A DNA stretch of 48,882 nt from Lacisediminihabitans sp. (GCA_039936355.1 JBDTIM010000095.1:1-48882); one strand, 5' to 3'; shown: positions 14,897 through 45,455, counted from the stretch's first letter. Program-made: numbers and translations. The notes: a model not told the origin generated them from the sequence alone.

Positions 14897-16159
14897 GTGA
14901 TAGGTAAGAAGCCACTCGCGGCCTGCGCCATAGTCCTGGGGTTGACGCTGGTCCTCGCTGCCTGCTCAGGCACCACCGCCACCCCATCAGACAACACGCA
15001 TAAGGATCCGATCAAGATTGGATTCCTCGGAACTCTCACAGGCGGTTCGGCCGACGTTGGCCAGACCGGACTGGATGGTGCCCACATCGCCATTGAAGAA
15101 ATCAACGAAAAGGGCGGAATCGACGGACATCTGCTAGAGATCGTCACAAAGGACGAACAGCTTTCGCCGGCGCAGACAGTGAAGGCAATGCGCGAGTTGG
15201 CGCAAGAGGGCGTCAAATACGTCACCGGGTTCACCAGTAGCGCAGACGTAATCGCCGCCACTCCGATCGCAGAGCAGAACGGAATGGTGATCATCACCGC
15301 TGGTGCTACGAGCACCGCGTTGACCACAACGAACTTCAGCAAGAACCTGTTCGAGGTCGCATCGAACACGTCGATGATGAACGCCGCAGCAGCGCAGCTC
15401 GTGGCCACAAAGTGGAAGGACGTCAAGGAATGGCAGAACGTGGGCTTCGACTACGTCACTGGGCACGGCTCATGGGACGAGTTCCAAGCACTTGCCAAGA
15501 AGGCAAACCCCACTGTGAAGTTCGGACAGGCGGTTTTCTATCCCCTGGCTGGCGGACAGCTGAGCGCCTACATCACCTCGCTCACCGGCACTAATCCCAG
15601 CAAGACCGACACCGGGTTGTTCGTGACCACCTTCGGCGGTGGCGCAGTAACATTCGCGAAGCAAGCGGAACCGTACAAACTCTTCGATAAGTACGCCGTG
15701 GTCGCAAACGTCGGCGGTGGAGAAGAACTCGCCGCGGCCCTCGGCGCGGACAGCCCTCGCATCTACTACGTCCACGACTACTTCTACGGTGCGTATGACA
15801 ATGCGATCAACAAGAACCTGATCGCAAAGTGGAAAGAGCGCCCGAAGGTCGGTCCGAAGACGCACGGTCCACACTCTTGGCTGTACGAGGGATACACGGC
15901 CACGATTGCGTTTGCCACCGCTATGCAGAAGGCCAAGTCGTCTGATGCTAAGAAGGTGCTTAAAGTGCTGCCGGGCATGAAGTTCGACACTGCGATGGGA
16001 CCGGCATATTTCAGGGCAGAGGACCACATCCTCTTCGCACCGGTCACCGCGGTTGAGTGCTTCGGCGATGCTGCCTCGGAGTTCGGATACAAGTGTGAGA
16101 ACGCTACGTCTGTTCCTGCGAAGGACGTCGTTCCCGCTCCTAATCCAACCAAAAAGTAG
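14897..16159 (+). CDS. ABC transporter substrate-binding lipoprotein, LivK/HAAT type
   Basis: GAAAGGAG RBS, lipobox LAAC, IKIG..LTG..A..G, INxxGGIxG. Confidence 0.9.
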   Translation: MIGKKPLAACAIVLGLTLVLAACSGTTATPSDNTHKDPIKIGFLGTLTGGSADVGQTGLDGAHIAIEEINEKGGIDGHLLEIVTKDEQLSPAQTVKAMRELAQEGVKYVTGFTSSADVIAATPIAEQNGMVIITAGATSTALTTTNFSKNLFEVASNTSMMNAAAAQLVATKWKDVKEWQNVGFDYVTGHGSWDEFQALAKKANPTVKFGQAVFYPLAGGQLSAYITSLTGTNPSKTDTGLFVTTFGGGAVTFAKQAEPYKLFDKYAVVANVGGGEELAAALGADSPRIYYVHDYFYGAYDNAINKNLIAKWKERPKVGPKTHGPHSWLYEGYTATIAFATAMQKAKSSDAKKVLKVLPGMKFDTAMGPAYFRAEDHILFAPVTAVECFGDAASEFGYKCENATSVPAKDVVPAPNPTKK

Positions 16160-16193
16160 ACCGCTCATTCGCATCAGGATGCCCGATCACAAC

Positions 16194-16232
16194 GTGTCCG
16201 GGGACTTCGGCAAAGCCGAGGTTCCCGGACAC
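16194..16232 (+). terminator. Intercistronic stem-loop (mRNA stabiliser or partial terminator)
   Basis: 18-bp stem GTGTCCGGGGACTTCGGC-AAA-GCCGAGGTTCCCGGACAC (2 G:U pairs) between the binding-protein and permease genes; no U-tract. Confidence 0.7.
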
Positions 16233-16252
16233 CGGGAAAGGGGACTAAACCG

Positions 16253-17134: not shown

Positions 17135-17150
17135 ACGGAGAAATACTGCC

Positions 17151-18934: not shown

Positions 18935-18938
18935 TGGA

Positions 18939-20201: not shown

Positions 20202-21494
20202 ATGAGCACCACTGATTATGGCGCGAGTTTTGTGCTCACGGCGGCATATGTCATAGCTGGCGACGAGCTACGAATGCTGAGCCCCGGTTACGTCCGAGTG
20301 GATGACGGAGTCATTACGGATGTCGGCGAGGGAGCACCTCCCCTGGCCGACCATGCCGATTGTCCGATTATCGACTTGCCGGGGCAGCTCATCATGCCCG
20401 GTCTGATTAACTGCCACACCCACATCGGTGACACCGTCGTCAAAGAGCTCGGCTACGGCGTCCCTGCTGACGTCAACCTCCTCTGGCAGCCGGACGGCCT
20501 GCGCCACGTGCGGATGGGTGCGCTCGGTAGGGAAACCAGAGTGGCCGGGATTAGGCATGCCCTCCAGCGAGCACTGGCCACTGGAACGGTTGCCCTTGCG
20601 GACTTCAGAGAGGGCGGGGTCGAGGGCGTATTGGAGTTGCGTGAGGCCGCGGCCGGGCTGCCAATCCGGTGTCTCGCGTTCGCCAGATTCACCACGTTCC
20701 CCCTCCACGACGACGCGGCTCTGGAAGGTAACTCGATTGGACTCTCAGACGCTCAATTAGCGGAGTTAGATGCAGGGCTCGATGTGGCGGAGGGCTTTTC
20801 TCCGCTCTGGGCCAACGACACGACAGATCTTGGCCTCACCCAGATTGCACAGCGCGTGCGTTCCCGCGGAAAGCTCCTGGCGACGCACGCCGGAGAGACA
20901 GCGCAGTACCGCGAGCTGTCGAAAGCAAGAACGGGGCTTGGCGACGTGCAGCGGATAGCGAAGTTCCTCGCCCCCGACTTCGTCGTGCACATGACGTCGG
21001 CCACCGATGAGGAGCTCGAGGTAGCCGCGACTGCGGGGATTCCTGTGGTGATGTGCGCCAGGACCCAGGCCGCTCTCGGTTACGGCATCCCGCCGTTCGT
21101 GCGAGCGGCGCGGTGCGGCGCCACTCTCGGCCTAGGCACCGACAACGCAATGATTTCCAGCCCGGATCTGCTGGCGGAACTGGAGTTCATGTCACGGTCG
21201 CTACGCTCCAAAACCGGCGACCCCGCAGCGGTCGACGCCACAGCACTGCTTGCTTCGGTCACGGTTGACGCCGCCCGGATACTGAAACTCGATCACGAGC
21301 TCGGATCCCTTTCTGTCGGGAAGTCGGCAACCCTGCTCGTGATCGACATGGAGTCGGATAACCTCGTTGGGTCTGTCAACCCCATCGCCAGCATCGTTGA
21401 TAGGGCGAGTCCGACCGACCTCACGATGGTTCTGGTCGACGGCAAGCTCGCGCACGGGGCCTTGCCAGAATTGCTTCACAGCCCCCCCAATTAG
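20202..21494 (+). CDS. Metal-dependent amidohydrolase (deaminase/chlorohydrolase-like)
   Basis: MPGLINCHTH, THAGE, VHMT, LGTDN, GSLxxGKxA. Confidence 0.85.
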   Translation: MSTTDYGASFVLTAAYVIAGDELRMLSPGYVRVDDGVITDVGEGAPPLADHADCPIIDLPGQLIMPGLINCHTHIGDTVVKELGYGVPADVNLLWQPDGLRHVRMGALGRETRVAGIRHALQRALATGTVALADFREGGVEGVLELREAAAGLPIRCLAFARFTTFPLHDDAALEGNSIGLSDAQLAELDAGLDVAEGFSPLWANDTTDLGLTQIAQRVRSRGKLLATHAGETAQYRELSKARTGLGDVQRIAKFLAPDFVVHMTSATDEELEVAATAGIPVVMCARTQAALGYGIPPFVRAARCGATLGLGTDNAMISSPDLLAELEFMSRSLRSKTGDPAAVDATALLASVTVDAARILKLDHELGSLSVGKSATLLVIDMESDNLVGSVNPIASIVDRASPTDLTMVLVDGKLAHGALPELLHSPPN

Positions 21495-21713: not shown

Positions 21714-21816
21714 TAGGACTAAGTCGAGTTACCTTTGTTGCGTTCAGAGAAACACTGTAAATTTATATAACCCGGCAAGGGTAGGCCCGTAACGACTCGC
21801 GACAGGAGAACCCACC

Positions 21817-22560
21817 ATTCCTCGTGTAACTCTGATCACCGGAGGCGCCCAGGGTATTGGGCTAGAGATCGCCCGAGAGCTCGCTCGACGTGGCGACAGC
21901 ATCGCACTGGCTGACTTGGTGCCACGCTCGCAGACAGCCCTGACGGCCGGCGAGCTCGCAGAAAAGTACGGTACTGCCGTCGTACCTTTTCACGTGGATA
22001 TCCAGGACCCCGCGTCGTGTGAACAGCTCATTCAGGACGTCATAGAACAGTTCGGCCGACTCGATGTTGTGGTGAATAACGCGGGAGTCAACTATCGGGC
22101 AGTAGCGGTTGAGACCCCTGAGTCGGCTTGGACGTCTGTCATCAACACCAATCTCAACGGCACGTTCCGAATCTCTTCCTTAGCATTTCCATTCCTCCGC
22201 GAAAGCAAAGGAACGGTGGTCAATCTCGCGTCGACCGCAGGACACATCGCGGTGGCAGGTTCGGCTGCATACGCCGTGAGCAAGGCCGCGATAATTCACC
22301 TCACGCGAGTACTCGCCCTAGAGTGGGCCGAATTTGGTGTGCGAGTAAACGCGGTCGGACCCACGATCGTTCCCACCTCGATGACTCAGGGCCTCCTCAC
22401 GAACGCAGAATATATGAGTAAGAAGCTGGGCTCGATCCCCCTGGGCGAGGTGGCCCTGCCCGCGGATGTCGCCCACGCGGTGGCATGGCTCGCGTCGCCA
22501 GAGGCACGCATGGTCACCGGGCACACAATATTCGTTGACGGTGGCGCCACGATCGTGTGA
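21817..22560 (+). CDS. Short-chain dehydrogenase/reductase with probable ATT start
   Basis: TGGAQGIG (upstream of the ORF-track start at 21916 but in frame), NNAG, YAVSK, VTG..I.VDGG. ATT at 21817 lies 8 nt after GGAG. Confidence 0.85.
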   Translation: MPRVTLITGGAQGIGLEIARELARRGDSIALADLVPRSQTALTAGELAEKYGTAVVPFHVDIQDPASCEQLIQDVIEQFGRLDVVVNNAGVNYRAVAVETPESAWTSVINTNLNGTFRISSLAFPFLRESKGTVVNLASTAGHIAVAGSAAYAVSKAAIIHLTRVLALEWAEFGVRVNAVGPTIVPTSMTQGLLTNAEYMSKKLGSIPLGEVALPADVAHAVAWLASPEARMVTGHTIFVDGGATIV

Positions 22561-23559: not shown

Positions 23560-25218
23560 TCAGCGGCTAAGTTGTGAGAACTCCCTGCTACGACCAGCCA
23601 ACATGTTGATGAGAGCATCGGAATCCACTGGCAATTCATCGCCGCACCATGCCACGTGCCCGTCTGGGCGCACTACCACCAGCGGTACACCATAAAGGGT
23701 GATGAGTTCCTTCTCTCGGATAGTCTGCTCGACTATAGGCAACCCTCGCTCTGTCGCAGAGCTCACGAAGCCACTGACGTCTGGAGCAGTTTCACCCATA
23801 CGCAGGATCACATAACCGGTTCCGAACAGATCCAGAATGGATCGACCGTCGGATAGCCACCCATGAGGAGCCCGCTTACCTGGTCTCACTTCCGGAACAA
23901 AGTCCACTGCCTCAAATGGTGCAGGGGTGCTCGTTCCGTAGTCAATGATCGGAGATCCAACATATTGATACCCGAGATGGATACCGACCGGCTTCCACGC
24001 CTTCATGTTCTCGTCGTGAAGCTGGCGACCCAGTTTCTTTCTGGCTGCCTCCCCTTCTGGACTGAGATCTGTAACGTGCGCTACTTGGGTTGCCGCAGTA
24101 AGCCGATCGTAATTGGCGAGCGCCTCTTCAACAACGAGAAGCGCTATCGGGCGCCTCTCCGATTCGTAGCTCTCCACCACGCCCGGGCCAGCCCACCCTT
24201 GGACCGCCGCGGCGAGTTTCCACGCGAGGTTCATGGAATCAGCGAACCCCGTGTTCATCCCGAAGCCCCCGTTCGGTGGAACGGGATGAACTGCGTCCCC
24301 TGCTAGGTACACGCGACCTTCCTGGAATCGGTCAGCAACCAGAGCCCGACGCACCCACCTCTCAGCAGGCGCCAATTCATACTCGAAATCGCCGCCTATC
24401 TTGCGCATGGCCGCCTCGATGTCGATGTCACTGACGTCCTGGTCATTTGCTCCATAGAACGTCAGCCGCCACAAATCCACTCCGTTGACCGCCATGACAG
24501 TGGCCCAAGTTCCTTGCTCGCCCACCATCACATAGCGTTTCGCGTGATCGATAACTCCCAGATTGTTGAACTCGGCCGACCGAAACATGTGGTTGAGTGA
24601 ATGGTCAACGACACCTCTGCCGCTGAATGGGATGTTGAGTCCCGACCGCACTGCACTCGTAAACCCGTCGCATCCAACGAGATAGTCCGCAGTGATCTGA
24701 TATGTTTCGCCGGTTGCGCGGTCAAGAACATTGGCCGTGACACCGTCAGCGTCCTGCGTTAAGGATAAGAACTCCTGCTGGTATTCGATCTCTATCCCAT
24801 CAAACGACAGCGCAAGGTCTCGCATGATCGGATCGAATGACGTTTGCGGGCAATGTACCTGCCATTCCGGGCTAAACGCTGACGGACCGAGTTCACCTGG
24901 GGTCGGCATTTTAATGCGGGCTATTTCTACGCCCGTCATCGACGTGATGAAAGCGTTATCTAGTGGATAGTCCTGAGGAAACCCCCAGTGTTTGATCCGG
25001 TCAGTGACTCCCAGTCGGCGGCAGAACTCCATCGTTCGGACGCCGATGTCCATGATCTTGACGGCTGGATTAACTCGGTTCTCACTACGCTCAATTAATA
25101 GTGCAGAAACGCCACGTGAACCGAGGTCAGAAGCCAACGCGAGCCCGATCGGACCACCACCGACAATCAATACTGGAGTGTGGCGGGGCTTACCCTTACC
25201 GCTTGAGTCATTCTTCAT
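23560..25218 (-). CDS. FAD-dependent monooxygenase (PheA/TfdB aromatic hydroxylase type) with C-terminal thioredoxin-like domain
   Basis: IVGGGPIG, VGCDG, LAGDAVH..PP.GG.GMNTG..D..NL.WKL, VRPDGHVAW. The ATG at 25218 has an AGGAAAG RBS. Confidence 0.9.
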   Translation of the reverse strand: MKNDSSGKGKPRHTPVLIVGGGPIGLALASDLGSRGVSALLIERSENRVNPAVKIMDIGVRTMEFCRRLGVTDRIKHWGFPQDYPLDNAFITSMTGVEIARIKMPTPGELGPSAFSPEWQVHCPQTSFDPIMRDLALSFDGIEIEYQQEFLSLTQDADGVTANVLDRATGETYQITADYLVGCDGFTSAVRSGLNIPFSGRGVVDHSLNHMFRSAEFNNLGVIDHAKRYVMVGEQGTWATVMAVNGVDLWRLTFYGANDQDVSDIDIEAAMRKIGGDFEYELAPAERWVRRALVADRFQEGRVYLAGDAVHPVPPNGGFGMNTGFADSMNLAWKLAAAVQGWAGPGVVESYESERRPIALLVVEEALANYDRLTAATQVAHVTDLSPEGEAARKKLGRQLHDENMKAWKPVGIHLGYQYVGSPIIDYGTSTPAPFEAVDFVPEVRPGKRAPHGWLSDGRSILDLFGTGYVILRMGETAPDVSGFVSSATERGLPIVEQTIREKELITLYGVPLVVVRPDGHVAWCGDELPVDSDALINMLAGRSREFSQLSR

Positions 25219-27222: not shown

Positions 27223-27346
27223 GTTCCGGTAGGCGAACCCGCAACTGGAATAATTAGCGGCTCTAGACACACAACCATAACTGTTTCCCGAGATATCTGT
27301 CAATAGAGCGATCTTGGTGCTCACAAGATGGTCCTCCTAGCGAAAC
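27223..27346 (-). promoter_or_regulatory. SigA promoter bracketed by two putative IclR operators
   Basis: Minus strand TTGACA (27303-27298)-N18-TATGGT (27279-27274). Operators GTTCC-GGTAGGC-GAACC (27223-27239) and GGTCC-TCCTAGC-GAAAC (27330-27346). Confidence 0.7.
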
Positions 27347-32184: not shown

Positions 32185-32521
32185 ATTCTTAAAACGCGAG
32201 AGCACTGTGCCACACATGTTTTATCCACGAGTCAGAGACCTCTGCTTCGCCTCAATGTGCCCTCACCCGAATGAATCAGCAGCAGCCGATGAACAGTTAT
32301 CGACGCTGGTGATCTCGCGCCTAAATTCTGCGGTCGTTACACCTCTATAAGAGAGGTGCCACTGGGCGACGTGTGGGCATCGATCAGCAGGTTGCGATCT
32401 CTGCGAGGCTCCGGAGTACGCTGTCGCGCGAATCCATCAATTAGCCGAGGACGGTCCCGCGGTGCACGTTGACTTTCAGACTGGCGATCATCGCAATCGG
32501 CCACAATCCCGTCTATTTAGG

Positions 32522-34346: not shown

Positions 34347-34363
34347 GTTCCGCTGAGCGTACT
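34347..34363. promoter_or_regulatory. Putative IclR operator in the divergent region
   Basis: GTTCC-GCTGAGC-GTACT, downstream of a possible minus-strand TTGACG-N17-GATCCT promoter (34416-34388). Confidence 0.55.
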
Positions 34364-34693: not shown

Positions 34694-36223
34694 ATGGATA
34701 GCTGGGATTACATCGTCGTCGGTGCAGGCTCTTCTGGTGCAGTCCTGGCAACACGACTCACAGAGAACCCGTCGGTGAATGTCTTGCTCCTCGAAGCAGG
34801 TCCCGACTATCGATCAGCAGAAACTCCAACGCAGTTCCGCGACCGCAACCTTGGCCGCGGGCTCGCTCTGTCCCCTCCACGCGAGGAAGCCGATCCGGAA
34901 TTCTTTTGGAGCGGAATCACAGCTCGAAGAAATCCGGTCCAGGATGTTTTCCCCTACCGACGTGGCCGCGGGCTAGGTGGGAGCTCGACCATAAACGGTT
35001 TGGCTGCAATTCGAGGACTGCCGACAGATTTTGACGAGTGGGTCCGCTCCGGTGCGAAAGGTTGGGCATACGAAGACCTGTTGCCCGCGTTCGTGAAACT
35101 AGAATCCGACGCCGACTTTCCCCAAGCGGACTATCACGGCTCTCATGGCCCGATCCCCGTCTTCCGCGAACCAGAATCTGGGTGGGGAGGGGTGGATGTC
35201 GGGCTCCGAGACGCCGCACTGAGCGAGGGCTATTCGTGGAACCCCGACCACAACAAGCCACACGGAACAGGCATCTCGCCGTTCGCAATGAATATCCGAC
35301 ATGGGCGCCGAGTATCTACGAACGATGGGTATTTGGAGCCAGCTCGGCAGCGCAAGAACCTCACGATTCGAGGAAACTCCCATGTTGATCGGGTTCTCAT
35401 ACAACACGATCGCGCAGTCGGGGTCGTCCTTGCATCTGGCGAGAGAATTTTTGTCGAAAGCGACGGAGAGGTGCTCCTTTCTGCAGGAGCAGCTCACAGT
35501 CCAGCGATTTTGTTTCGCTCCGGAGTTGGCCCAGAAGCAGCCCTCACGTCGATCGGCGTTACGCCCGTGTCGTTATTGCCAGTGGGGGATGGGCATCAAG
35601 ACCATGCAATCACTTTCATCGAGTTACCGGTCGCTCGAGAGTCACAACTGAGCAATGGAAGCAGGCCGAGCAATATTGTCGTTCGATATTCGTCAGGGCT
35701 CGAAGGTGGCGGACCCAACGACATGATGCTGTTGGCAAGCAACCACAATTACTGGTTTGGCTTGTCAACAGCCGCTATCGCCGTTCAACTAAACCAACCG
35801 TTCTCGCGTGGCAATTTCGTATTGAGGTCGGCAGATCCGTTTGACAATCCCCATTTTGAGCAGAATCTCTTGTCCGACCAGCGAGATCTGGCCCGGATGC
35901 GTGACGGCATCGCCCGAGCCTCGCGGCTGCTCACCCAGCCCTCATTTAGACAACTCATCACAGGCCCCGTTGATCTGCCATCGAGCGACGGGGAAATCCT
36001 CGCGAAAGTAAAGGACGTCGTGCATCTTTGTTCAACAGCCAGGATGGGATCCGCCAGCGATCCCCACGCCGTCGTAGACCCCGATTGCGAAGTCATCGGA
36101 GTCAACGGGCTTCGCGTAATTGACGCGTCTATCATGCCCAACATCGTGAGCGCCAACATACATTTGACCGTCATCGCCATGGCGGAATTGATGGCAACGA
36201 GGCTCATGGCGAAGCCTCGATAG
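34694..36223 (+). CDS. GMC family flavin oxidoreductase
   Basis: DYIVVGAGSSG, LLLEAG, RGRGLGGSSTING, catalytic H (VHLCSTARMG), GLRVIDASIMP..VSAN. Confidence 0.92.
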   Translation: MDSWDYIVVGAGSSGAVLATRLTENPSVNVLLLEAGPDYRSAETPTQFRDRNLGRGLALSPPREEADPEFFWSGITARRNPVQDVFPYRRGRGLGGSSTINGLAAIRGLPTDFDEWVRSGAKGWAYEDLLPAFVKLESDADFPQADYHGSHGPIPVFREPESGWGGVDVGLRDAALSEGYSWNPDHNKPHGTGISPFAMNIRHGRRVSTNDGYLEPARQRKNLTIRGNSHVDRVLIQHDRAVGVVLASGERIFVESDGEVLLSAGAAHSPAILFRSGVGPEAALTSIGVTPVSLLPVGDGHQDHAITFIELPVARESQLSNGSRPSNIVVRYSSGLEGGGPNDMMLLASNHNYWFGLSTAAIAVQLNQPFSRGNFVLRSADPFDNPHFEQNLLSDQRDLARMRDGIARASRLLTQPSFRQLITGPVDLPSSDGEILAKVKDVVHLCSTARMGSASDPHAVVDPDCEVIGVNGLRVIDASIMPNIVSANIHLTVIAMAELMATRLMAKPR

Positions 36224-37139: not shown

Positions 37140-38345
37140 GTGAGTGACACCACACAGCTCGAACCCGTAATCATTGTCGGCGGTGGGCCAGTCGGAATGA
37201 TTACGGCGTTAGCCCTCGAAGGGAGCGGCGTCCCAGTAACGCTTCTAGAGAGCGGGCCAGACGAACTGCGATCGGAATGGCGCGGGTCGACAGTTCATCC
37301 GCCCACGGTGGCAATACTTGCCGAGCTCGGCCTCGCGGATGACATTCTCAGCGAGGCTGTCCGTCTTGAACGCTTGACCTATCGCGACCTGGAGCTGGAG
37401 GGCGAGGCATCCTTCAGTTATTCGCTACTCAGCGGACAAACCCCGTACCCATTTCGACTGCAGTACGAGCAGTACAAGCTTGTTCGCCTCCTCAAAAAGG
37501 CACTGGTTGATCGGGAGGTCACGACCCTCTACAACAGTAAGGTAGTGGGCTTGCGCCAAGACGATGATGCCGTCTATCTGGACGTCGAGACCAGCGAAGG
37601 TACTCGCGCCCTAGGGGGTCGCTGGGTCATAGCGGCAGATGGTGCACACAGCACCATTAGGCACATCCTGGATGTCCCCTTCCCCGGATTCACCTATCCA
37701 CTTCAGAGCCTTGTCGCTGCTACTGCTTTCGACTTTGAGAGCTACTTCCCCCAGTTGCCTGCGGTGAGTTATTGGACTGGCCCTCGAGGACGGTTCTCCC
37801 TTATTCGGACGCCAGACATTTGGAGAATCGCTCTGTCCACCAGCACAACCTCCGACGAGACGTATGTTCGTGACGGAAGCCGCCCGCACGCAGACTTCAT
37901 CGCCGACATCGAGCTGCTTTTTAAAGGTGAGGTTGACCCACTGAGCATAGAGCTTCAGCAGCACCAGATGTACCGCACTCACCAACGGCTTGCTGAAACA
38001 TTTAAAGTTGGACGAGTGCTCCTCGCTGGAGATGCCGCACACCTGAGTAGCACTACCGGCGGAATGGGTCTCAATTCCGGAATTCACGATGCAAGTGCTC
38101 TTAGCAGAGCCTTCGGCGAGCCCGATTTGGAGGCCGCTCTGGAGTCATATGCGTATGGGAGACGCCGGATGGCAGAACAAGTAATCCAACCCATGACGAC
38201 ACAGAGCCGACAGCGCACCGACCTTGCCAGTGTCGAAGCACGCCAACAGCGCCTCACGGATATGATTCAACTCGCCTCTCATGAAGAAAGCGCCCGGGAA
38301 CACTTGATCGGGACCAGCATGTTGCGTGTCAGCGGCCTTGCTTAG
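37140..38345 (+). CDS. FAD-dependent monooxygenase/oxidoreductase (FAD_binding_3)
   Basis: IVGGGPVG, AADGAHS, LAGDAAH..GGMGLNSGIHDA. AAGGAG RBS. Confidence 0.88.
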   Translation: MSDTTQLEPVIIVGGGPVGMITALALEGSGVPVTLLESGPDELRSEWRGSTVHPPTVAILAELGLADDILSEAVRLERLTYRDLELEGEASFSYSLLSGQTPYPFRLQYEQYKLVRLLKKALVDREVTTLYNSKVVGLRQDDDAVYLDVETSEGTRALGGRWVIAADGAHSTIRHILDVPFPGFTYPLQSLVAATAFDFESYFPQLPAVSYWTGPRGRFSLIRTPDIWRIALSTSTTSDETYVRDGSRPHADFIADIELLFKGEVDPLSIELQQHQMYRTHQRLAETFKVGRVLLAGDAAHLSSTTGGMGLNSGIHDASALSRAFGEPDLEAALESYAYGRRRMAEQVIQPMTTQSRQRTDLASVEARQQRLTDMIQLASHEESAREHLIGTSMLRVSGLA

Positions 38346-38427: not shown

Positions 38428-39198
38428 TTGGCAACGAAGTCATCTCCAACGGGGACAGAAGCTGCCGAGCGTGTCGCAGACGTGCTTCTCGCGTTTTCCC
38501 ACGGCGACACGTCAATCGGTGTAAGTGCACTGTCACGAGAGCTGTCGCTCAGCAAAGCCGTGGTGCACCGCATCCTGAAGTCGCTGGTATCGCGCGCACT
38601 CATCCACTTCGACCCCGCGAGCCGCGAATACAGCCTCGGACCAGGTGCGACCCTGTTGGGCACGCGCGCACTACGCCAACTCGATTTGCGTATCGTGGCC
38701 CGCGACGAACTCAGCAAGTTGCGCAATGACACGGGTGAGACGACCACCCTGTCACTGCTGGTAAACGATAAGCGTACGTATGTTGATCAATACGAGAGTC
38801 GCCAAGAAATCAAGATGACGGTTGAGCTCGGTCGCCTTTACCCACTGTATGCCGGAGCTTCGAGCCGAACGATTTTGGCTTTTCTTCCGGAATCAGAGAT
38901 TGAACGCGTACTAGCATCAGGCCTTGACCCTTTAACTCGTGAAACCGTGCGTGATCCTCTCCAGCTGCGAGAGCAACTCGAAGACATCCGGAGCAATCAT
39001 TACGCCACGTCGCGGGGAGAGCGGCAGTCAGGAGCCGGATCCGTGGCGGCGCCGGTATTCGGCAGCGACGGTCGAGTGGTCGGATCTATCAGTATCTGTG
39101 GCCCACTCGCGCGCTTTGACCCCGACGCGGTCGCGCGATATATCCCTCTCGTGACAGCTGCCGCGACGAAAATCTCGTCAAATCTAACCGGACACTAG
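38428..39198 (+). CDS. IclR family transcriptional regulator
   Basis: HTH LSRELSLSKAVVHRIL, G...PLYAGAS, SVAAPVF....V.GSISI.GP. TTG start. Confidence 0.93.
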   Translation: MATKSSPTGTEAAERVADVLLAFSHGDTSIGVSALSRELSLSKAVVHRILKSLVSRALIHFDPASREYSLGPGATLLGTRALRQLDLRIVARDELSKLRNDTGETTTLSLLVNDKRTYVDQYESRQEIKMTVELGRLYPLYAGASSRTILAFLPESEIERVLASGLDPLTRETVRDPLQLREQLEDIRSNHYATSRGERQSGAGSVAAPVFGSDGRVVGSISICGPLARFDPDAVARYIPLVTAAATKISSNLTGH

Positions 39199-39603
39199 GG
39201 CGCGTTACGCGCTAAGCGCTAGTTCAGCAACGCGGCAGCGCCCCACGCGCAGGGTGATGAGACGCCCTCCCGTTCGATCGAAGAAGTATCGAGCCCTGTC
39301 GACTCTGCAGCGGGATCTTCACTCATCGGCTCGCGTTGGCCAACAGCGAGTGCGGCACGTCTCCACCTCTGCTGAGACAAGCTTGCCGCGTGAGTCGACT
39401 TTCTCCACCAAATTTTGCTATCTAGCAATCCACATAAGTAGCGCTCCAGCCTCATGCCGTGTGTTCCTCTAGGAGGAACTTTAAATCGAAAATGAGACCT
39501 GTCACCTCGAGGAATTGCACCTCCTTGTAGGGATTGTCGACCAATTGTCTCGCAAATGACTAGAAAGAGCTGACGTTCTAAGCTATAGTTCAAATCTCGG
39601 AAT

Positions 39604-39620
39604 GTTTCTCAGGACGGAAC
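39604..39620. promoter_or_regulatory. Putative IclR operator
   Basis: AT-GTTTC-TCAGGAC-GGAAC-AT, 15 nt after a TATAGT -10 element (39584-39589) and just before the RBS. Confidence 0.68.
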
Positions 39621-39642: not shown

Positions 39643-40836
39643 ATGACGCCACTGGAAGGCCTACGAGTCATCGATGCGTCGACGATCCTCGCCGGGCCTC
39701 TGTGTTGCCAGATCCTCGGCGATTTTGGCGCAGATGTCATCAAGATCGAGCATCCGGTCTACGGCGATAGCATGCGCGGCCACGGTGGGCAGAAGGATGG
39801 CGTCTCACTGTGGTGGAAGGAGATTAGCCGCAACAAGCGCGGTCTTGGTCTCAATCTCGGAACTCCAGCCGGTGCCGAAGCTTTTCTCCGCTTGGCACAG
39901 ACAGCGGATGTCGTCGTGGAGAATTTTCGACCGGGGACGTTGGAGCGTTGGGGCATCGGCCCGACTCAACTACACGAGGTCAATCCCGGACTGATTCTGG
40001 TCAGGCTCACCGGGTTCGGCCAGACCGGCCCATATTCCACCCGCCCCGGTTTCGGAACTCTCGCCGAGGCGATGAGCGGGTTCGCCTATCTCACAGGCTC
40101 GCCAGATGGCCCACCCACGCTGCCCGCGTTCGGCCTAGCAGACAGCATTTGCGGAATCGCCGCTTCATCCGCCACCATGATGGCGCTTCGCCACCGTGAA
40201 GTGAACGGCGGTGGCGGACAGGTCATCGATATGAGCATCCTCGAGCCGATCATGGCCGCCGTAGGACCAGGGCCAACCGTCTACGACCAACTCGGAGTCG
40301 TCGGAGAACGACATGGCAACCGGTCCACCAACAACGCTCCCCGTAATACTTACCGCACACGCGACGGCTACTGGGTCGCTGTCTCGAGCAGCGCCCAAAG
40401 CATCGCCGAGCGCATCATGACCCTCGTCGGGCATCCCGAACTCCTCACTGAGCCTTGGTTTGCCAGCGGGCATGGCCGTGCAGAAAACGTCGATCTCATC
40501 GATGGGTATGTGGCAGATTGGATCGCCCAGCGCGACCGCTCCGATGTGCTCGCCGAGTTCGAAAGGGTAGGCGGCGCCGTTGCGCCGGTCTACAGCGCGA
40601 AGGACATCGTAGAAGATCCCCACATCAGAGAAACCCAGATGCTGGTTGAAGTGAATGACCCGGACCTCGGCCAAGTATTGATGCACAACGTCATGTGGCG
40701 GATGTCAGAATCGCCCGGGCAAATCCGGTTCACCGGCCGCGCACTGGGAGCAGACACCGACACCATCATGGTCGACGAACTCGGTTACACCACTGAGCAG
40801 GTACACGCAATGCGTGAAGAGGGAGTACTGACATGA
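39643..40836 (+). CDS. CaiB/BaiF family III CoA-transferase
   Basis: PLEGLRVID, DFGADVIKIE, RNKR, ADVVVENFRPG, GFGQTGP, catalytic D in LADS. Confidence 0.93.
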   Translation: MTPLEGLRVIDASTILAGPLCCQILGDFGADVIKIEHPVYGDSMRGHGGQKDGVSLWWKEISRNKRGLGLNLGTPAGAEAFLRLAQTADVVVENFRPGTLERWGIGPTQLHEVNPGLILVRLTGFGQTGPYSTRPGFGTLAEAMSGFAYLTGSPDGPPTLPAFGLADSICGIAASSATMMALRHREVNGGGGQVIDMSILEPIMAAVGPGPTVYDQLGVVGERHGNRSTNNAPRNTYRTRDGYWVAVSSSAQSIAERIMTLVGHPELLTEPWFASGHGRAENVDLIDGYVADWIAQRDRSDVLAEFERVGGAVAPVYSAKDIVEDPHIRETQMLVEVNDPDLGQVLMHNVMWRMSESPGQIRFTGRALGADTDTIMVDELGYTTEQVHAMREEGVLT

Positions 40837-41651
40837 GTGACGCACTGTTGGAAGTCGTCCGCAAAGGCGTTCGCACCTTCGATCTGGGACGCCCCCTGTT
40901 CGCCGGTATGCCGCAATCACCAAACCACCCGAAATACACTCACACGCTCCCCCGCCGCCATGGTGACATGGTGCGTCCCGACGGAGGATCTGCCGCTAAC
41001 GACCTGCTGGTCATGGGAACTCACGTGGGAACGCACATCGACGCTCTGGCCCATGTTTCCCAAGATGGCCGGCTGCACGGCGGCGACGACGCATACGAAG
41101 CCGGATGTGGCGGCGGCTATCAACGACTCGGTGTGCACACGGTGAAGCCGATCATCCGTCGCGGCATACTTCTCGACATCCCGCGGGCACTGGGGCTGGA
41201 CGTCTGCGAGGCTGCATACGAAGTGACACCTGCGGACCTCGACTCGGCCCTCGCCCGTACGGGTGTCAAAATTGGCGAAGGCGATATCGTCCTCATCCGC
41301 ACCGGATGGGGCAGGCACTTCTCAGACGGTTCCGACTCATACCTGGGCAAAGACACAGGAGTTCCCGGTGTGAGCGAAGCCGGAGCGAACTGGCTGGCGA
41401 ACCACCGAGTCACCGCAGCGGGCGCAGACACCATCGCCTTCGAATATCTTCCCGCCGGTGCGGGGCACTCTGTTCTTCCCGCGCATCGCGTGCTGCTGGT
41501 CGAACGGGGTATCTACATTATCGAGGCGCTCGATCTCGAAGAACTAGCAGACTCCGGTGTGCACGAGTTCACCTTCATCTTGTCGCCGTTGAACCTGGTC
41601 GGCGCAACCGGTTCCCCGGTCAGGCCACTCGCGGTGGTTTCGGATGTCTGA
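40833..41651 (+). CDS. Cyclase family protein (kynurenine formamidase-like metal hydrolase)
   Basis: HVGTHIDALAH, LIRTGW, AH..LL...G..IIE, GATGSPVRP. Confidence 0.9.
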   Translation: MSDALLEVVRKGVRTFDLGRPLFAGMPQSPNHPKYTHTLPRRHGDMVRPDGGSAANDLLVMGTHVGTHIDALAHVSQDGRLHGGDDAYEAGCGGGYQRLGVHTVKPIIRRGILLDIPRALGLDVCEAAYEVTPADLDSALARTGVKIGEGDIVLIRTGWGRHFSDGSDSYLGKDTGVPGVSEAGANWLANHRVTAAGADTIAFEYLPAGAGHSVLPAHRVLLVERGIYIIEALDLEELADSGVHEFTFILSPLNLVGATGSPVRPLAVVSDV

Positions 41652-43101
41652 CACCCTCGCACAACAGTTGGCGACCTTCGCCGTCGCGAGCACGTATGAC
41701 AACCTGCCGTCCACAGTGGTATCCAGCGTGCGCGAACGCGTGCTCGACATCCTCGGCATCTGCGCAGCAGCGACAGAGCTGGAAACAAGCCGAGCAGCCA
41801 TGGCGTGGGTGTCTGCACAGGGTGGCGTCCCACACGCGACAGCAATTGGGTTACACGAAAACGTCCCCGCCTCCCAAGCAGCGTTCGTCAACGGTGTTCT
41901 TGCACACTCGCTCGACTACGACGACACGCACCTTCCCTCTGTTTTGCATCCGAGCGCGTCCGTCATTCCCGCGGCCCTTGCGGCTGCTCAAGCCAGCGGT
42001 GCCGACGGTCGAGCGACCATCGCCGCGATCGCCGTGGGCCTCGAGGTCTGCGTGCGCATCGGGATGGCCGGATACGATCACGACTCGGGAAACTCTACGT
42101 TTTTCGAACACGGGCAGCACGCCACCTCCATCTGCGGCGCCCTCGGCTCCGCGGTCGCGGCCGGGATGCTCCTCGGGTTGGATAAAGAAGGCCTAACGAA
42201 CGCCATCGGAGTTTCAGCCTCGATGGCGTCTGGAATTATCGAATCTAACCGCACAGGTGGGACGGTCAAGCGAATGCACTGCGGCTGGGCAGCACACTCC
42301 GGTGTCTCTGCCGCACAGCTCGTTGCACTCGGATTTACCGGGCCCCCAACCGTGCTCGAGGGCCGCTTCGGCTTCTTCGAAGCTTGGCTGCATGGGACCT
42401 TCAACGCTGCAGAAATCACGGATGGCCTTGGCACGCACTGGTTAGTGCCCGGAATATTCTTCAAGCCCTACCCCGCAAATCACTTCACCCATGCGGCCAT
42501 AGATGCCGCCCTAGCGCTTCGAGCTGAAGGGCTCAATGTAGATCAGATCGAGTCAATTACGGTCGGTGTCGCCACCCCAACGGTTCGGACTATAGGCGAG
42601 CCGATCGCCGTCAAGCGCGCGCCAGACACCGGATACATGGCCCAGTTCAGCGCACCTTTTGTCGTCGCAGCTGCCCTACTAGGTGGTAGCGGACTCGGAC
42701 TCGGACTCGACGACTTCACCGACGACAAGGCTCACGACCCGGCCTACCGGGCTGTCATGGCCAAGGTGAGCGTGATTGCCGATGCTGACTGTGACGAGAT
42801 CTTTCCCCACCAGTTTCCTGCCACACTCCGGGTGCGGTTAATCGGAGGGCAGGAGATTGTCAAGAAAGTTCTGGCCAACCGCGGCGGCCCCGGTCACCCG
42901 CTGTCGTACGAAGAACTGGGAACGAAATTCTCCGACAATGCCGGTCGGGTGCTCGGAGCCCAAGCGGTAGCGAACATCCGAGACAACGTCGCACGCATGG
43001 AACAGCTTGCTGGCGTTGGGCAACTGCTGGAACCGATGCGAGACCTCGGCCAACTGCACACTGTTCCAGACGATGAATCAAAGGAGAACACCGATGTCTG
43101 A
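41644..43101 (+). CDS. MmgE/PrpD family protein
   Basis: NG.LAHSLDYDDTH..HPS, KRMHCGWAA..G, FKPYP, AQFS.PF. Confidence 0.9.
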   Translation: MSDTLAQQLATFAVASTYDNLPSTVVSSVRERVLDILGICAAATELETSRAAMAWVSAQGGVPHATAIGLHENVPASQAAFVNGVLAHSLDYDDTHLPSVLHPSASVIPAALAAAQASGADGRATIAAIAVGLEVCVRIGMAGYDHDSGNSTFFEHGQHATSICGALGSAVAAGMLLGLDKEGLTNAIGVSASMASGIIESNRTGGTVKRMHCGWAAHSGVSAAQLVALGFTGPPTVLEGRFGFFEAWLHGTFNAAEITDGLGTHWLVPGIFFKPYPANHFTHAAIDAALALRAEGLNVDQIESITVGVATPTVRTIGEPIAVKRAPDTGYMAQFSAPFVVAAALLGGSGLGLGLDDFTDDKAHDPAYRAVMAKVSVIADADCDEIFPHQFPATLRVRLIGGQEIVKKVLANRGGPGHPLSYEELGTKFSDNAGRVLGAQAVANIRDNVARMEQLAGVGQLLEPMRDLGQLHTVPDDESKENTDV

Positions 43102-44563
43102 ATTCGACCTGCTGGTTAAAAATGTTCGAGTCGTCCGCGCGGACACGAGCGAGGTCGCCGACCTCGACATTGGAGTCGCCGGTGGAAAGATCACCCGCCT
43201 CGCTCCCGCACTAGATGCGGACCTCGCTGCAACCGTCGTCGACGGCGGAGGCAAGCTGGCCTTTCCCGGCGCAGTGGATTCACACCAGCACTGGGGAATC
43301 TACAACCCGCTCGAGGAAGACGCTCGCAGCGAGAGCCGCGCCTCTGCCCAGGGCGGTGTCACGTCGGGGATCTCTTATATGCGCACCGGTCAGTACTACC
43401 TCAACCAGGGGGGGCCCTACTCCAAATTCCTGCCCAAGGTTCTCGAGGCGAGCGAGGGGCGTTCGTTCATCGACTACGCCTTCCACGTGGCTCCGATGAT
43501 GAACGAACACATCGACGAATTGCCGCAGATCGTTAAAGACTTCGGAATTACCTCATTTAAAATCTTCATGTTCTACGGAGGCTTTGGACTTCACGGTGCA
43601 TCAACGAGCCAGCGGGAGTTCCTCATGATCCCCGAGGACGAAAACTATGACTATGCACACTTCGAGTTCGTCATGCGGGGCGTGCAGCGCCTGCGAGAGC
43701 AGATGCCGGAACTCGCCGACGAGATTTCGCTCTCTCTGCACTGCGAGACGGCCGAGATCATGCGGGCGTACACGACCATCGTGCAGAAGGAGGGAAAGCT
43801 GAAGGGTCTCGAGGCGTATAGCGCGGCCCGGCCACCACACTCCGAAGGACTAGCTGTTTCGATCGCCTCTTACCTGGCGTACGAGACAGGCCTGCCAACG
43901 ATCAATCTGCTTCACCTGTCATCCGCCAAGGCCCTCGACGCGGCACTTGCCATGTCGAAGGCGTTCCCACACATCGACTTCCGTCGCGAAGTTACCATCG
44001 GTCACCTACTTGCGAACTTCAATACTGCAGCAAATCTCGGTGGCAAAGTCAACCCGCCGCTACGCTCGCCTGAAGATGTCGAAGCGCTTTGGGAACACCT
44101 GATTGCCGGCGATATCGACTGGGTCGTGAGCGACCATGCGTGCTGCAAAGACGAGCTCAAGTTCGGCGAACCACGGGACGATGTCTTCGCGGCGAAGTCC
44201 GGATTCGGCGGTACCGAATACCTGCTGCCCGGCCTCATTAGCGAGGGATCGAAGCGCGGGCTTAGCTACCAGCGGATTGCACAGCTCACGTCATGGAACC
44301 CGGCAAAGCGCTACGGTCTGCACCAGAAGGGGAATATTGCAGAAGGATACGACGCCGACTTCGCGCTGGTCGATCCCAACAGCTCGCACGTGATCCACGC
44401 CAGCGACTCAGAGTCGACTCAGGAGTACACACCCTTCGAGGGCTTCGAGCTCTCCGCACAGGTGACGGATACGTTCGTGCGGGGAAACCGAGTGCTTGAG
44501 AACGGAAAAGTTGTCGGGGAACCGCACGGGAAGTATCTCCGCCGCGGTTCACTTACGGCCTAG
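43094..44563 (+). CDS. Cyclic amidohydrolase (allantoinase/dihydroorotase/hydantoinase family)
   Basis: PG.VDSHQH, SFKIFM (carbamylated Lys), LHCE, HLS, KVNPPLR, SDHA, NPAK.YGL..KG. AAGGAG RBS before 43094. Confidence 0.88.
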   Translation: MSEFDLLVKNVRVVRADTSEVADLDIGVAGGKITRLAPALDADLAATVVDGGGKLAFPGAVDSHQHWGIYNPLEEDARSESRASAQGGVTSGISYMRTGQYYLNQGGPYSKFLPKVLEASEGRSFIDYAFHVAPMMNEHIDELPQIVKDFGITSFKIFMFYGGFGLHGASTSQREFLMIPEDENYDYAHFEFVMRGVQRLREQMPELADEISLSLHCETAEIMRAYTTIVQKEGKLKGLEAYSAARPPHSEGLAVSIASYLAYETGLPTINLLHLSSAKALDAALAMSKAFPHIDFRREVTIGHLLANFNTAANLGGKVNPPLRSPEDVEALWEHLIAGDIDWVVSDHACCKDELKFGEPRDDVFAAKSGFGGTEYLLPGLISEGSKRGLSYQRIAQLTSWNPAKRYGLHQKGNIAEGYDADFALVDPNSSHVIHASDSESTQEYTPFEGFELSAQVTDTFVRGNRVLENGKVVGEPHGKYLRRGSLTA

Positions 44564-44573
44564 TTCGGCAGGG

Positions 44574-45455
44574 TCAGCTTCCCTGCCGGGCTCCGGCCCT
44601 GGCGAGCACCTCACGCGCTGAACGGACGACGGCGACGTCAACCATCCTGCCGTCGTCATCCGTCATCACTCCCGCACCACCACGCTCGGACTCCTCGAAC
44701 GCAGCGACCAGCCTGCTGGCACGCTGCACTTCGGCCTCCGACGGCGTGAACACCTCGTTGATCGTCGCGAGCTGGGCCGGGTGGATGGCGCTGCGCCCGC
44801 GAAAGCCGAGACGCAAGAGACGCTCGGTCGATTCCCGCAGAGCCACCAGATCACGGAAGTCAGTGGATGTCGGGGCCATCGGGGAGGCGATTCCCGCCGC
44901 CGCCGACGCAATCACGAGTTGCAGAAGCAGAGGATCGAGGCCCGCGTCTTCTGGCTCGAGCCGAAGCCCGAGCTCGCCCGCCAAATCCGCGCGACCTATC
45001 GCCAACCGTGCCACACGGGGCAGTGAGGCGAGTTCCGCGGCACTCAGCAAACCGCGAGCCGTTTCGATGAGAGCGATGATCGCGAAGCTCCCGTGAACTG
45101 CCTGCAGCTCCCGCTCGCGAGACGTGAGGAGTTCGTCCACGGCGCGCAGAAGTTCCGGTTCCGCCTTGGGTACCATCACTCCGGTGACCCGTGAGGTAAG
45201 CGCCGCAATGTCAGCCGCGGGGGAGGTTGATGTTGTGCGCACCCACACTTGGCCGGTCGTTTCTCCATTATCCGCAAGCCATGCGGCAACACGCTCTCTA
45301 GCCAAGGTCTTGTTCTGCAGGGACACGGAATCCTCTAGATCGAGGATCAGCGCATCAGCACCGCGCGCGCTCGCGCCGTCCAGGCGTTCCTTCTGATCTC
45401 CCGGCACGTACAGGTAGCTCCGGGCAGCGGACTCGCTTTGGGCGTGTGAGTGCAT
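44574..45455 (-). CDS. CitE-like HpcH/HpaI aldolase/citrate lyase family (acyl-CoA lyase)
   Basis: RSYLYVPG, LDLEDSV, PK, IETARG, AIHPAQ, GRMVD. TAGACT -10 element 6 nt before the ATG (leaderless). Confidence 0.9.
   Translation of the reverse strand: MHSHAQSESAARSYLYVPGDQKERLDGASARGADALILDLEDSVSLQNKTLARERVAAWLADNGETTGQVWVRTTSTSPAADIAALTSRVTGVMVPKAEPELLRAVDELLTSRERELQAVHGSFAIIALIETARGLLSAAELASLPRVARLAIGRADLAGELGLRLEPEDAGLDPLLLQLVIASAAAGIASPMAPTSTDFRDLVALRESTERLLRLGFRGRSAIHPAQLATINEVFTPSEAEVQRASRLVAAFEESERGGAGVMTDDDGRMVDVAVVRSAREVLARAGARQGS

What the first reader, a model, noticed from the sequence alone, without database searches (positions are those of the whole stretch)
14897..45455. Uncharacterised catabolic pathway, probably for an N-heterocycle or nitrile
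Seen: five C-N hydrolase-type enzymes (nitrilase, isochorismatase-type amidase, cyclase/formamidase, cyclic amidohydrolase, deaminase-type amidohydrolase). Also two flavin hydroxylases, GMC + ALDH + SDR, a maleate-isomerase-like protein, a SnoaL protein, CoA-transferase, MmgE/PrpD, a CitE-like lyase and two ABC importers. Knowledge: parts echo the nicotinate maleamate pathway (NicC/D/E/F families) and vitamin B6 catabolism (GMC oxidase, SDR, flavin oxygenase, alpha/beta hydrolase). However, no NicX-type dioxygenase, Rieske oxygenase or molybdo-hydroxylase is in the window. Inference: side-chain oxidation, flavin-dependent ring attack, stepwise N release, then a dicarboxylate lower pathway. I do not recognise this combination as a described pathway, and the substrate cannot be read from sequence.
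Basis: partly seen in the sequence, partly recalled or inferred. Interest (0 to 1): 0.75.

Follow-up and report, generated by a model that had tools for sequence, protein, structure and literature searches.

The report
Undescribed nitrogen-ring breakdown regulon in actinobacteria
A soil actinobacterium carries a 26-gene block of transport and breakdown enzymes that share one repeated control motif, found beside the same core genes in many other actinobacteria, and that likely dismantle a nitrogen-containing ring compound by oxygenating it, opening it with water and splitting the leftover acid, with the actual food molecule still unidentified.

Summary
The gene inventory is real. It is more than a pile of catabolic genes. 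A 17-bp palindrome learned from other genomes puts 10 of its top 20 genome-wide hits inside this block (1.5% of the genome), all intergenic. The same motif marks 66 of 77 related loci. A core (IclR, CoA-transferase, MmgE/PrpD, cyclic amidohydrolase, CitE, plus cyclase or a racemase-fold substitute) recurs across Actinomycetota. The upper genes recur with it, in new orders, in Leifsonella, Micromonospora and another class. It does not map onto the nicotinate or vitamin B6 pathways. The 'maleate isomerase' lacks its second cysteine in 120 of 120 relatives, and the alpha/beta hydrolase lacks nucleophile and histidine. Best model (inferred, about 45%): flavin oxygenation of a substituted hydroxypyridine-type ring, then a cyclic imide, hydrolytic opening, N release, hydration and CoA-dependent C-C cleavage. 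This resembles the fungal hxn route joined to an itaconate/citrate-lyase-like end. The substrate is unknown. No description turned up in 10 paper searches of an open-access library. The operator and cultured carriers make the question directly testable.

The parts
14652..14668 (.). Predicted IclR operator (17-bp palindrome) upstream of the LIV importer
   Evidence: rank 1 in genome, 22.6 bits
14796..14812 (.). Predicted operator upstream of the LIV importer
   Evidence: rank 11
14897..16159 (+). LIV/HAAT-type ABC solute-binding lipoprotein
   Evidence: PF13458
16253..19742 (+). LIV-type permeases (16253-17134, 17151-18182) and ATPases (18179-18934, ~18939-19742)
   Evidence: PF02653, PF00005
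19772..20191 (+). SnoaL-like protein
   Evidence: PF12680; 66% to Leifsonella, 52% to Blastococcus
20202..21494 (+). Deaminase-type amidohydrolase (HxH, HxxE, D intact); accessory
   Evidence: 48% in L003
21629..21645 (.). Predicted operator upstream of SDR
   Evidence: rank 8
21737..21753 (.). Predicted operator upstream of SDR
   Evidence: rank 10
21817..22560 (+). SDR oxidoreductase, probable ATT start behind AGGAG
   Evidence: same letters in contigs of runs X1-X3; 74% in L082
22582..23418 (+). Alpha/beta-hydrolase-fold protein without Ser/Asp/Cys nucleophile or catalytic His
23560..25218 (-). FMO1, PRK06126/RebC-like flavin hydroxylase; accessory
   Evidence: NF004780 566.9 bits over cut-off 445; 75% in L082
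25379..27107 (-). NMT1/SsuC-type ABC permease (25379-26275) and ATPase (26268-27107)
27223..27239 (.). Predicted operator upstream of ABC ATPase-permease-FMO1
   Evidence: rank 7
27330..27346 (.). Predicted operator upstream of ABC ATPase-permease-FMO1
   Evidence: rank 5
27554..29017 (-). DHA2-type MFS transporter
   Evidence: 55% in Leifsonella
29048..30460 (-). Aldehyde dehydrogenase
   Evidence: 74-82% in Leifsonella and L082
30631..31734 (-). NMT1/THI5-like solute-binding lipoprotein
   Evidence: PF09084
32168..32184 (.). Predicted operator upstream of SBP-ALDH-MFS
   Evidence: rank 3
32522..33604 (-). Nitrilase-superfamily C-N hydrolase (E-K-C, CGEN)
   Evidence: 65% in Leifsonella
33706..34311 (-). 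Isochorismatase-family cysteine amidase, RutB-like but far below the RutB cut-off
   Evidence: 61% in Leifsonella
34347..34363 (.). Weaker predicted operator upstream of the amidase-nitrilase pair
   Evidence: rank 51, 12.2 bits
34500..34516 (.). Predicted operator upstream of GMC-Amd-FMO2-IclR
   Evidence: rank 19
34694..36223 (+). GMC alcohol oxidase/dehydrogenase, HMFO/MftG-like; accessory
   Evidence: 73% in L082
36349..37101 (+). Amd: maleate-isomerase/arylmalonate-decarboxylase fold without the second Cys
37140..38345 (+). FMO2: PnpA/HspB-like flavin monooxygenase, paired with Amd
38428..39198 (+). IclR-family regulator, presumed binder of the operator
   Evidence: in 68 of 80 core loci
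39463..39479 (.). Predicted operator upstream of the core operon
   Evidence: rank 2
39604..39620 (.). Predicted operator upstream of the core operon
   Evidence: rank 20
39643..40836 (+). Family III CoA-transferase (core)
   Evidence: 75 of 80 loci
40833..41651 (+). Cyclase/kynurenine-formamidase-family amidase (core, alternates with a racemase-fold protein)
41644..43101 (+). MmgE/PrpD-family protein (core)
   Evidence: family in 73 of 80 loci
43094..44563 (+). Cyclic amidohydrolase, allantoinase/hydantoinase-like, below all curated cut-offs shown (core)
44574..45455 (-). CitE/citramalyl-CoA-lyase-like C-C lyase (core by co-occurrence; no operator found upstream)
   Evidence: 57 of 80 loci

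Best explanation
The block is a set of transport and catabolic operons sharing one conserved palindrome, likely a single IclR-controlled regulon that probably imports a substituted nitrogen ring (most likely a hydroxypyridine or pyridone), likely oxygenates it with flavin enzymes to a cyclic imide, and would then open it by hydrolysis, strip the nitrogen and split the remaining branched acid. Steps: (1) Import by the NMT1 and LIV systems, export of toxic intermediates by the MFS (inferred from families). (2) GMC, ALDH, nitrilase, amidase and deaminase trim substituents to a common hydroxy-acid (inferred; these genes are variable). (3) FMO2 hydroxylates para to a ring hydroxyl and displaces a substituent, as HspB/PnpA do, while its fixed partner Amd decarboxylates or tautomerises the product without catalytic cysteines (inferred). 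(4) FMO1 and the SDR, or elsewhere a flavocytochrome-type FAD enzyme, adjust the ring to a cyclic imide or lactam (inferred). (5) The cyclic amidohydrolase opens it and the cyclase-family amidase, or its racemase-fold substitute, releases ammonia (inferred). (6) MmgE/PrpD hydrates or epimerises the branched di- or tricarboxylate, and CaiB plus CitE cleave it to an acyl-CoA and a keto acid (inferred). Shown directly: the genes, their residues, the motif, the co-occurrence. My confidence that it is one regulon is about 0.9; the figure given is for the chemical route.
For: Operator: motif trained on non-window DNA gives 10 of the top 20 genome sites in the block, all intergenic, covering six upstream regions, with a weaker seventh; the 10 best outside sites lie inside ORFs; 0 of 500 shuffles reach the count; 66 of 77 other loci carry it. 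Core co-occurrence in 80 loci. Cyclase and racemase-fold protein are nearly exclusive (both 2, only cyclase 33, only racemase 39, neither 6); FAD enzyme and SDR orthologue are exclusive (both 0; 63 vs 7), as expected of substitutes for one step. Upper genes travel with the core in Leifsonella, M. carbonacea, N. algeriensis and G1101, and together in rearranged order in L082. Proteobacterial FMO2-Amd clusters sit beside a hydratase and/or C-C lyase of other families: aconitase plus methylisocitrate-lyase-like in Shinella, ICL-family lyase in Novosphingobium, LeuC plus citrate lyase in Roseomonas. FMO2's best solved relatives are PnpA and HspB. Precedent for two flavin hydroxylases, SDR, cyclic imidase and amidase without a ring dioxygenase: Aspergillus hxn (PMC9304392, passages).
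Against: No enzyme has a characterised orthologue; best solved relatives are distant, so every chemical step is by analogy. FMO1, GMC and the FAD dehydrogenase were not found with these queries in near-complete Leifsonella, so the two-hydroxylase version is not required. Most core loci lack the upper genes within 10 kb (FMO2 3 of 80, nitrilase 0 of 80), so the core may serve a non-aromatic substrate. A secreted tannase-family hydrolase follows operator sites in some loci, which hints at an ester-linked acid rather than a ring. PnpA acts on a nitrophenol, so FMO2 does not prove a pyridine. The exclusivity counts come from related genomes and are not independent. CitE has no operator upstream in the window. 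Amidohydrolase-fold proteins can be ring dioxygenases (KpiC, PMC7356986, passages).
Confidence: 0.45

Rival explanations
1. A scavenging regulon: the conserved core handles one simple metabolite (a cyclic imide or a citrate/tricarballylate/methylsuccinate-like acid amide or ester), and this strain has bolted on several unrelated funnels for different substrates under the same regulator.
For: Upper modules differ widely among genomes: OYE, luciferase-like monooxygenase, methyltransferases, M20 peptidase, tannase. The upper part has lower GC than the core, 56.8% vs 61.5%. There are two importers. In Rhodococcus gordoniae the core adjoins an itaconate-type module.
Against: ALDH, FMO2, Amd, nitrilase, amidase and the NMT1 importer recur as a set in distant lineages. 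L082 holds eight of the upper components in one co-directional run.
Confidence: 0.22
2. An oxygenolytic maleamate- or B6-like route with a disguised ring dioxygenase (the deaminase-type amidohydrolase, cyclase or SnoaL protein), giving an N-acyl ring-fission product.
For: HspB makes 2,5-dihydroxypyridine, which enters the maleamate route (PMC7688666, passages). KpiC precedent. The top fold match of the alpha/beta protein is the B6 acetamidomethylene-succinate hydrolase, at 22% identity with little margin.
Against: The deformylase-like and isomerase-like proteins lack their catalytic residues. The deaminase-type enzyme is in 1 of 80 loci. The universal gene is a cyclic amidohydrolase with an intact metal site.
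Confidence: 0.14
3. Catabolism of an amino-hydroxymethyl-pyrimidine (thiamine moiety or modified cytosine): deamination, alcohol-to-acid oxidation, then dihydropyrimidinase- and RutB-like steps.
For: NMT1/THI5-like binding protein, deaminase, HMFO-like GMC, RutB-like amidase, hydantoinase-like enzyme.
Against: The RutB score is 121 against a cut-off of 378. No RutA or barbiturase among the scanned ORFs. A hydratase plus C-C lyase end is not needed for malonate or beta-alanine products. The deaminase and GMC are accessory.
Confidence: 0.11
4. Nitrile or cyanide-derived substrate catabolism centred on the nitrilase.
For: Best solved relatives are cyanide dihydratases and nitrilases, E about 1e-50.
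Against: The nitrilase is absent from the 80 core windows and below the Nit6803 cut-off. Ring-opening and oxygenase genes would be left unexplained.
Confidence: 0.04
5. Chance accumulation of unrelated catabolic genes at an integration site.
For: Low-GC segment; mixed gene orientation; rare among relatives (0 of 60; 1 of 400).
Against: Shared operator and repeated co-occurrence in new gene orders.
Confidence: 0.03

Closest known systems
Aspergillus nidulans hxn nicotinate pathway (PMC9304392; passages read)
   Same: Logic: two flavin hydroxylases, SDR, hydrolytic opening of a cyclic imide, amidase, no ring dioxygenase.
   Different: Fungal; starts with a Mo hydroxylase; its imidase is PuuE/deacetylase-type, not binuclear hydantoinase-type; ends at hydroxyglutarate with no CoA-transferase/PrpD/CitE end. 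No sequence orthology tested.
Nicotinate/nicotine maleamate pathway NicC-X-D-F-E, HspB-Hpo-Nfo-Ami-Iso (PMC7688666; passages)
   Same: HspB-like monooxygenase, alpha/beta fold, isochorismatase amidase, maleate-isomerase fold.
   Different: No NicX found; the alpha/beta protein lacks nucleophile and His; the isomerase fold lacks the second Cys; the amidase is nearer RutB.
Vitamin B6 pathway I (enzyme set recalled)
   Same: GMC, SDR, flavin oxygenase, alpha/beta fold (top Foldseek hit).
   Different: GMC closer to HMF oxidase (E 6e-74) than pyridoxine 4-oxidase (5e-50); no MHPCO listed; no lactonase or class II aldolase among scanned ORFs.
Itaconate/citramalate degradation (CoA-transferase, hydratase, citramalyl-CoA lyase; recalled)
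   Same: CaiB, MmgE/PrpD and CitE trio.
   Different: CitE scores 153 against a RipC cut-off of 375; no MaoC hydratase; tied to a cyclic amidohydrolase.
Mycobacterium INA1 isonicotinate/citrazinate route via a CoA-bound glutarimide to tricarballylate (recalled; not found)
   Same: Would need a CoA-transferase, an imide hydrolase, an amidase and a TcuA-like FAD enzyme, which is the commonest core.
   Different: Needs Mo hydroxylases, which were not found in Leifsonella; the FAD enzyme was not found in this genome; genes not available for comparison.
Pseudomonas hinFLHG imidazoleacetate pathway (PMC8231116, PMC6467879; passages)
   Same: FAD monooxygenase next to amidases for an N-heterocycle.
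   Different: Ends in aspartate; LysR-regulated; sequences could not be compared.

Membership tests
Maleamate pathway | 2,5-dihydroxypyridine dioxygenase NicX/Hpo | tested here: not met
   No such family among 43 scanned ORFs; not searched genome-wide; genome 67% complete
Maleamate pathway | Maleate isomerase with two catalytic Cys | tested here: not met
   Second site is Gly188 in 120 of 120 relatives; first Cys73 in 72 of 120
Maleamate pathway | Ser-His-Asp deformylase NicD | tested here: not met
   Elbow Ala or His and no His after beta8 in 11 of 11 homologs; positions from motif and model
Arylmalonate decarboxylase | Catalytic Cys188; NF052327 cut-off | tested here: not met
   Gly at that site; 55 vs 225 bits; fold is shared, TM about 0.7-0.78
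Vitamin B6 pathway I | Pyridoxine 4-oxidase and MHPCO orthologues | tested here: not met
   Other GMCs score higher; MHPCO not listed at E<=1e-20 and 1e-15
Rut pyrimidine pathway | RutA monooxygenase and RutB equivalog | tested here: not met
   RutB 121 vs 378 bits; no luciferase-like gene among scanned ORFs
Allantoinase / dihydropyrimidinase / ErtD | Curated equivalog cut-off | tested here: not met
   229/358, 192/393, 196/650 bits
Cyclic amidohydrolase superfamily | HxH, carbamylated Lys, two His, Asp metal site | tested here: met
   HQH64, FKIF155, LHCE215, LLH272, VSDH345 (roles recalled)
Itaconate degradation | RipC/Ccl equivalog and MaoC-type hydratase | tested here: not met
   153 vs 375 bits; no MaoC in the block
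hxn-like hydrolytic route | Cyclic imide intermediate opened by hydrolysis | not testable with these tools
   Needs enzyme assay or metabolomics
Citrazinate route | Molybdenum hydroxylase in the regulon | tested here: inconclusive
   None found in Leifsonella; one unlinked copy on C37 of this genome, with no top-40 operator on that contig
Single IclR regulon | Shared operator before the operons, conserved with the regulator | tested here: met
Single IclR regulon | Binding of this IclR to the motif and co-induction | not testable with these tools
   Needs EMSA and RNA data
hin imidazoleacetate pathway | Orthology to HinF and HinH | not tested
   Sequences not obtainable with the tools

The most novel reading that the evidence does not exclude
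A widespread, undescribed bacterial hub for nitrogen-ring catabolism. A conserved IclR regulon opens a cyclic imide hydrolytically and cleaves the resulting branched tricarboxylate through a CoA-transferase/CitE pair. It is fed by swappable upper modules that include two new catalytic types: a cysteine-independent racemase-fold enzyme paired with a flavin monooxygenase, and a nucleophile-less alpha/beta-fold enzyme. The substrate would be an abundant natural product whose fate in soil is unexplained, such as a vitamin B6 catabolite or a tetrapyrrole-derived maleimide.
Probability: 0.25. Interest if true: 0.8.

Novelty: new variant of a known kind. Interest (0 to 1): 0.6.

Why it matters
The core amidohydrolase family is large: at least 7,206 protein clusters at E<=1e-100 among 8,000 scored, 577 loci seen in GTDB species genomes, and 18 of 400 sampled phylum genomes. 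It is annotated as allantoinase or dihydroorotase although it meets none of the curated cut-offs shown. Assigning its substrate would fix a common misannotation and probably reveal a soil carbon and nitrogen flux. The operator gives a direct handle: a regulator-DNA release assay can screen for the inducer, and cultured, non-pathogenic carriers exist (Leifsonella bigeumensis, Micromonospora, Amycolatopsis, Nocardioides). Two conserved proteins with non-standard active sites are candidates for new enzyme chemistry.

Tried and rejected
First de novo motif run locked onto coding sequence of the amidohydrolase and was discarded. All-against-all BLAST timed out, and a first clustering was spoiled by shadow ORFs; redone with heuristic gene calls. 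Repeat search showed no arrays; only family D5 led to the operator. Sigma-70 and terminator scan was no better than shuffles. Degenerate operator pattern over five genomes: 4 clustered sites in Leifsonella, the rest near control level and not followed up. Atlas searches gave only generic family names. No RNA holder listed, so no expression evidence. Earlier scan notes: nothing. Paper searches found no description of this cluster; the library lacks most subscription journals, and supplements were not read. The trigonelline paper is not held. That ureidomalonase and HinH are racemase-fold amidases is recalled and was not confirmed. The nearest plasmid nitrilase (65%, Arthrobacter crystallopoietes pLDW-10) sits in a different context. 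Amd-like genes in Rhodococcus fascians are in an unrelated cluster. Rejected: maleate isomerase, arylmalonate decarboxylase, NicD, RutB, allantoinase, itaconate pathway and B6 pathway I as memberships; assembly error as the cause of the SDR start.

Full report
Setting. The window is all of contig C95 of a 2.07-Mb, 67%-complete assembly. A genome reported as same-family (G664) shares coordinates with the Leifsonella bigeumensis locus, so the host is inferred to be Microbacteriaceae (family of Leifsonella recalled). The best sequence holders are soil metagenomes. The stretch 14473-39642 has 56.8% GC against 62.8% on the left flank and 61.5% in the core operon. The cyclic amidohydrolase was not found in 60 relatives, including 5 of the same genus, and the Amd protein in 1 of 400 family genomes. 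The block is therefore probably acquired.

Inventory. Apart from broad subfamily models (PRK06126 for FMO1), no catabolic enzyme reaches a function-specific curated cut-off among the rows shown. Nearest solved relatives: allantoinase/hydantoinase, RebC, PnpA and HspB, cyanide dihydratase, IRG1/IDS epimerase, RutB, HMF oxidase ahead of pyridoxine 4-oxidase, AtzA/MTA deaminase. All are distant.

Two proteins are not what they look like. The Amd protein folds like maleate isomerase, but the second catalytic Cys is Gly in 120 of 120 relatives and the first is Cys in only 72 of 120. N14, R35, R46, Y50, T74, G75, Y78, Y125 and G188-T-G190 are invariant. The alpha/beta protein has Ala113 at the nucleophile elbow and TDF where His is expected; none of 11 homologs has Ser, Asp or Cys at the elbow or His in that loop. 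Its top fold match is the B6 acetamidomethylene-succinate hydrolase at 22%, barely ahead of dehalogenases. The SDR has no ordinary start codon before its Rossmann motif; an ATT follows AGGAG by 8 bases, and contigs of three runs show no difference there.

One regulon. I first saw a palindrome in the window's intergenic DNA. To reduce circularity I trained a matrix only on 4,046 intergenic bases from six other loci, giving GTTtCgcTnAgcGaAAC. Width, symmetry and the choice of loci were informed by the window, so the test is not fully blind. In the host genome 10 of the top 20 sites fall in the block, which is 1.5% of the genome; all 10 are intergenic, and the 10 best sites elsewhere lie inside ORFs. 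Shuffles never reach the count (0 of 500), the flanks have no site >=14 bits, and 66 of 77 non-training amidohydrolase loci have a non-genic site (gene calls heuristic). Of 13 further genomes whose neighbourhoods I fetched from the phylum sample, 10 have such sites. CitE has none upstream in the window. That this IclR binds the motif is inferred from co-location.

A conserved core. Of 577 GTDB loci encoding a relative of the amidohydrolase, the best 80 were analysed (69 full length). CaiB is beside it in 75, a PrpD-family gene in 73, IclR in 68, CitE in 57 and the cyclase in 35. A flavocytochrome/TcuA-like FAD enzyme is in 63 of 80 but was not found in this genome. Cyclase and a racemase-fold protein are nearly exclusive (2 both, 33, 39, 6 neither), and the FAD enzyme never occurs with the SDR orthologue or the alpha/beta protein. 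This suggests substitutes for one amidase step and one redox step, though the genomes are kin.

Upper modules. Within 10 kb of the amidohydrolase the upper genes are rare (nitrilase, amidase and GMC 0 of 80; FMO2 3 of 80). Wider reading finds them linked. Leifsonella has Amd, FMO2, amidase, nitrilase, MFS, ALDH, NMT1 importer, SnoaL and the core, near the same GntR-prpD genes as here. L082 has Amd, FMO2, SDR, alpha/beta, FMO1, GMC, importer and ALDH at 53-82% (binding protein 32%) in a new order. Micromonospora carbonacea has CitE, Amd, FMO2 and ALDH beside a second core. G1101, from another class, has most of the set with six operator sites. Against a fixed pathway: GMC, FMO1, the FAD enzyme and a Mo hydroxylase were not found in Leifsonella, and ten of the extended regions gave no hit or only generic ones. 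FMO2 and Amd stay paired in Alphaproteobacteria, next to aconitase plus a methylisocitrate-lyase-like gene (Shinella), an ICL-family lyase (Novosphingobium), or LeuC and a citrate lyase (Roseomonas); the Bradyrhizobium FMO2 relative has no such partners. Different families filling the hydratase and lyase slots is the best clue that the product is a branched unsaturated or hydroxylated di- or tricarboxylate.

Mechanism. I commit to oxygenation, cyclic imide formation, hydrolytic opening, N release, hydration and CoA-dependent cleavage (0.45). The closest working precedent is the fungal hxn route (PMC9304392, passages). Within this model my odds for the ring are roughly pyridine-type 55%, pyrrole/maleimide 20%, other 25%; these are judgement. 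A 4-substituted glutarimide would open to an isocitrate- or tricarballylate-type skeleton, which fits both lower modules and a citrazinate route I recall but could not find. If propionyl-CoA is a product, the adjacent methylcitrate operon would consume it; this is speculation. Rivals are a multi-substrate funnel (0.22), a disguised dioxygenase as in KpiC (0.14; PMC7356986, passages), a pyrimidine route (0.11), nitriles (0.04) and chance (0.03).

Novelty. Ten searches of the open-access library (listings only, plus passages from six papers) found no description. Subscription papers and supplements were not seen, so a published name may exist. It is a new variant of a known kind, N-heterocycle catabolism, with a newly defined operator and two atypical enzymes. 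Interest 0.6.

Noticed in passing
window 21817-21819: SDR appears to start at ATT behind a good ribosome-binding site; same letters in three other runs' contigs; the L082 orthologue starts with ATG.
   Followed up: partly
window 10166-14472: Complete methylcitrate operon (prpD, prpB, prpC) with GntR next to the block; the same neighbours flank the Leifsonella cluster (L116:15000-17200).
   Followed up: partly
L075:12790-14406 (also L076, L077, L081); L165:6087-8024: Secreted-looking tannase/feruloyl-esterase-family gene directly behind operator sites in two separate lineages; may point to an ester- or amide-bound source of the substrate.
   Followed up: partly
L005:12621-14059, L030:19332-20685, L140:9975-11105, L158:5503-6636 and 14009-15070: A class I methyltransferase-fold protein, usually with a ~100-aa unknown protein, recurs in these clusters but is absent from the window.
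   Followed up: partly
L116:5727-14906; L119:1620-7046: Flavin monooxygenase, amidohydrolase_2 and genes that read as a TPP-dependent E1/E2 dehydrogenase (motifs recalled) lie behind operator sites in Leifsonella and a Microbacterium MAG.
   Followed up: partly
L138:2847-23999: On a Rhodococcus gordoniae plasmid the core adjoins an itaconate/methylsuccinate-type module and a hydantoinase/oxoprolinase pair.
   Followed up: no
window 1769-5221: 1150-aa surface protein with Ig-like repeats and a C-terminal FGLLP-type membrane domain (below cut-off), next to a protein O-mannosyltransferase-like gene at 116-1642.
   Followed up: no
window 31735-32521: 787-base AT-rich gap with one strong operator, a half-site at 32061 and no convincing ORF.
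   Followed up: partly
L154:20001-21062: Nearest plasmid nitrilase (65%) is on Arthrobacter crystallopoietes pLDW-10, with one operator-like site 1.7 kb upstream; that strain is recalled as a 2-pyridone degrader.
   Followed up: partly
G000:C37:6723-7415: One molybdenum hydroxylase large subunit elsewhere in the genome, with no top-ranked operator on that contig.
   Followed up: partly
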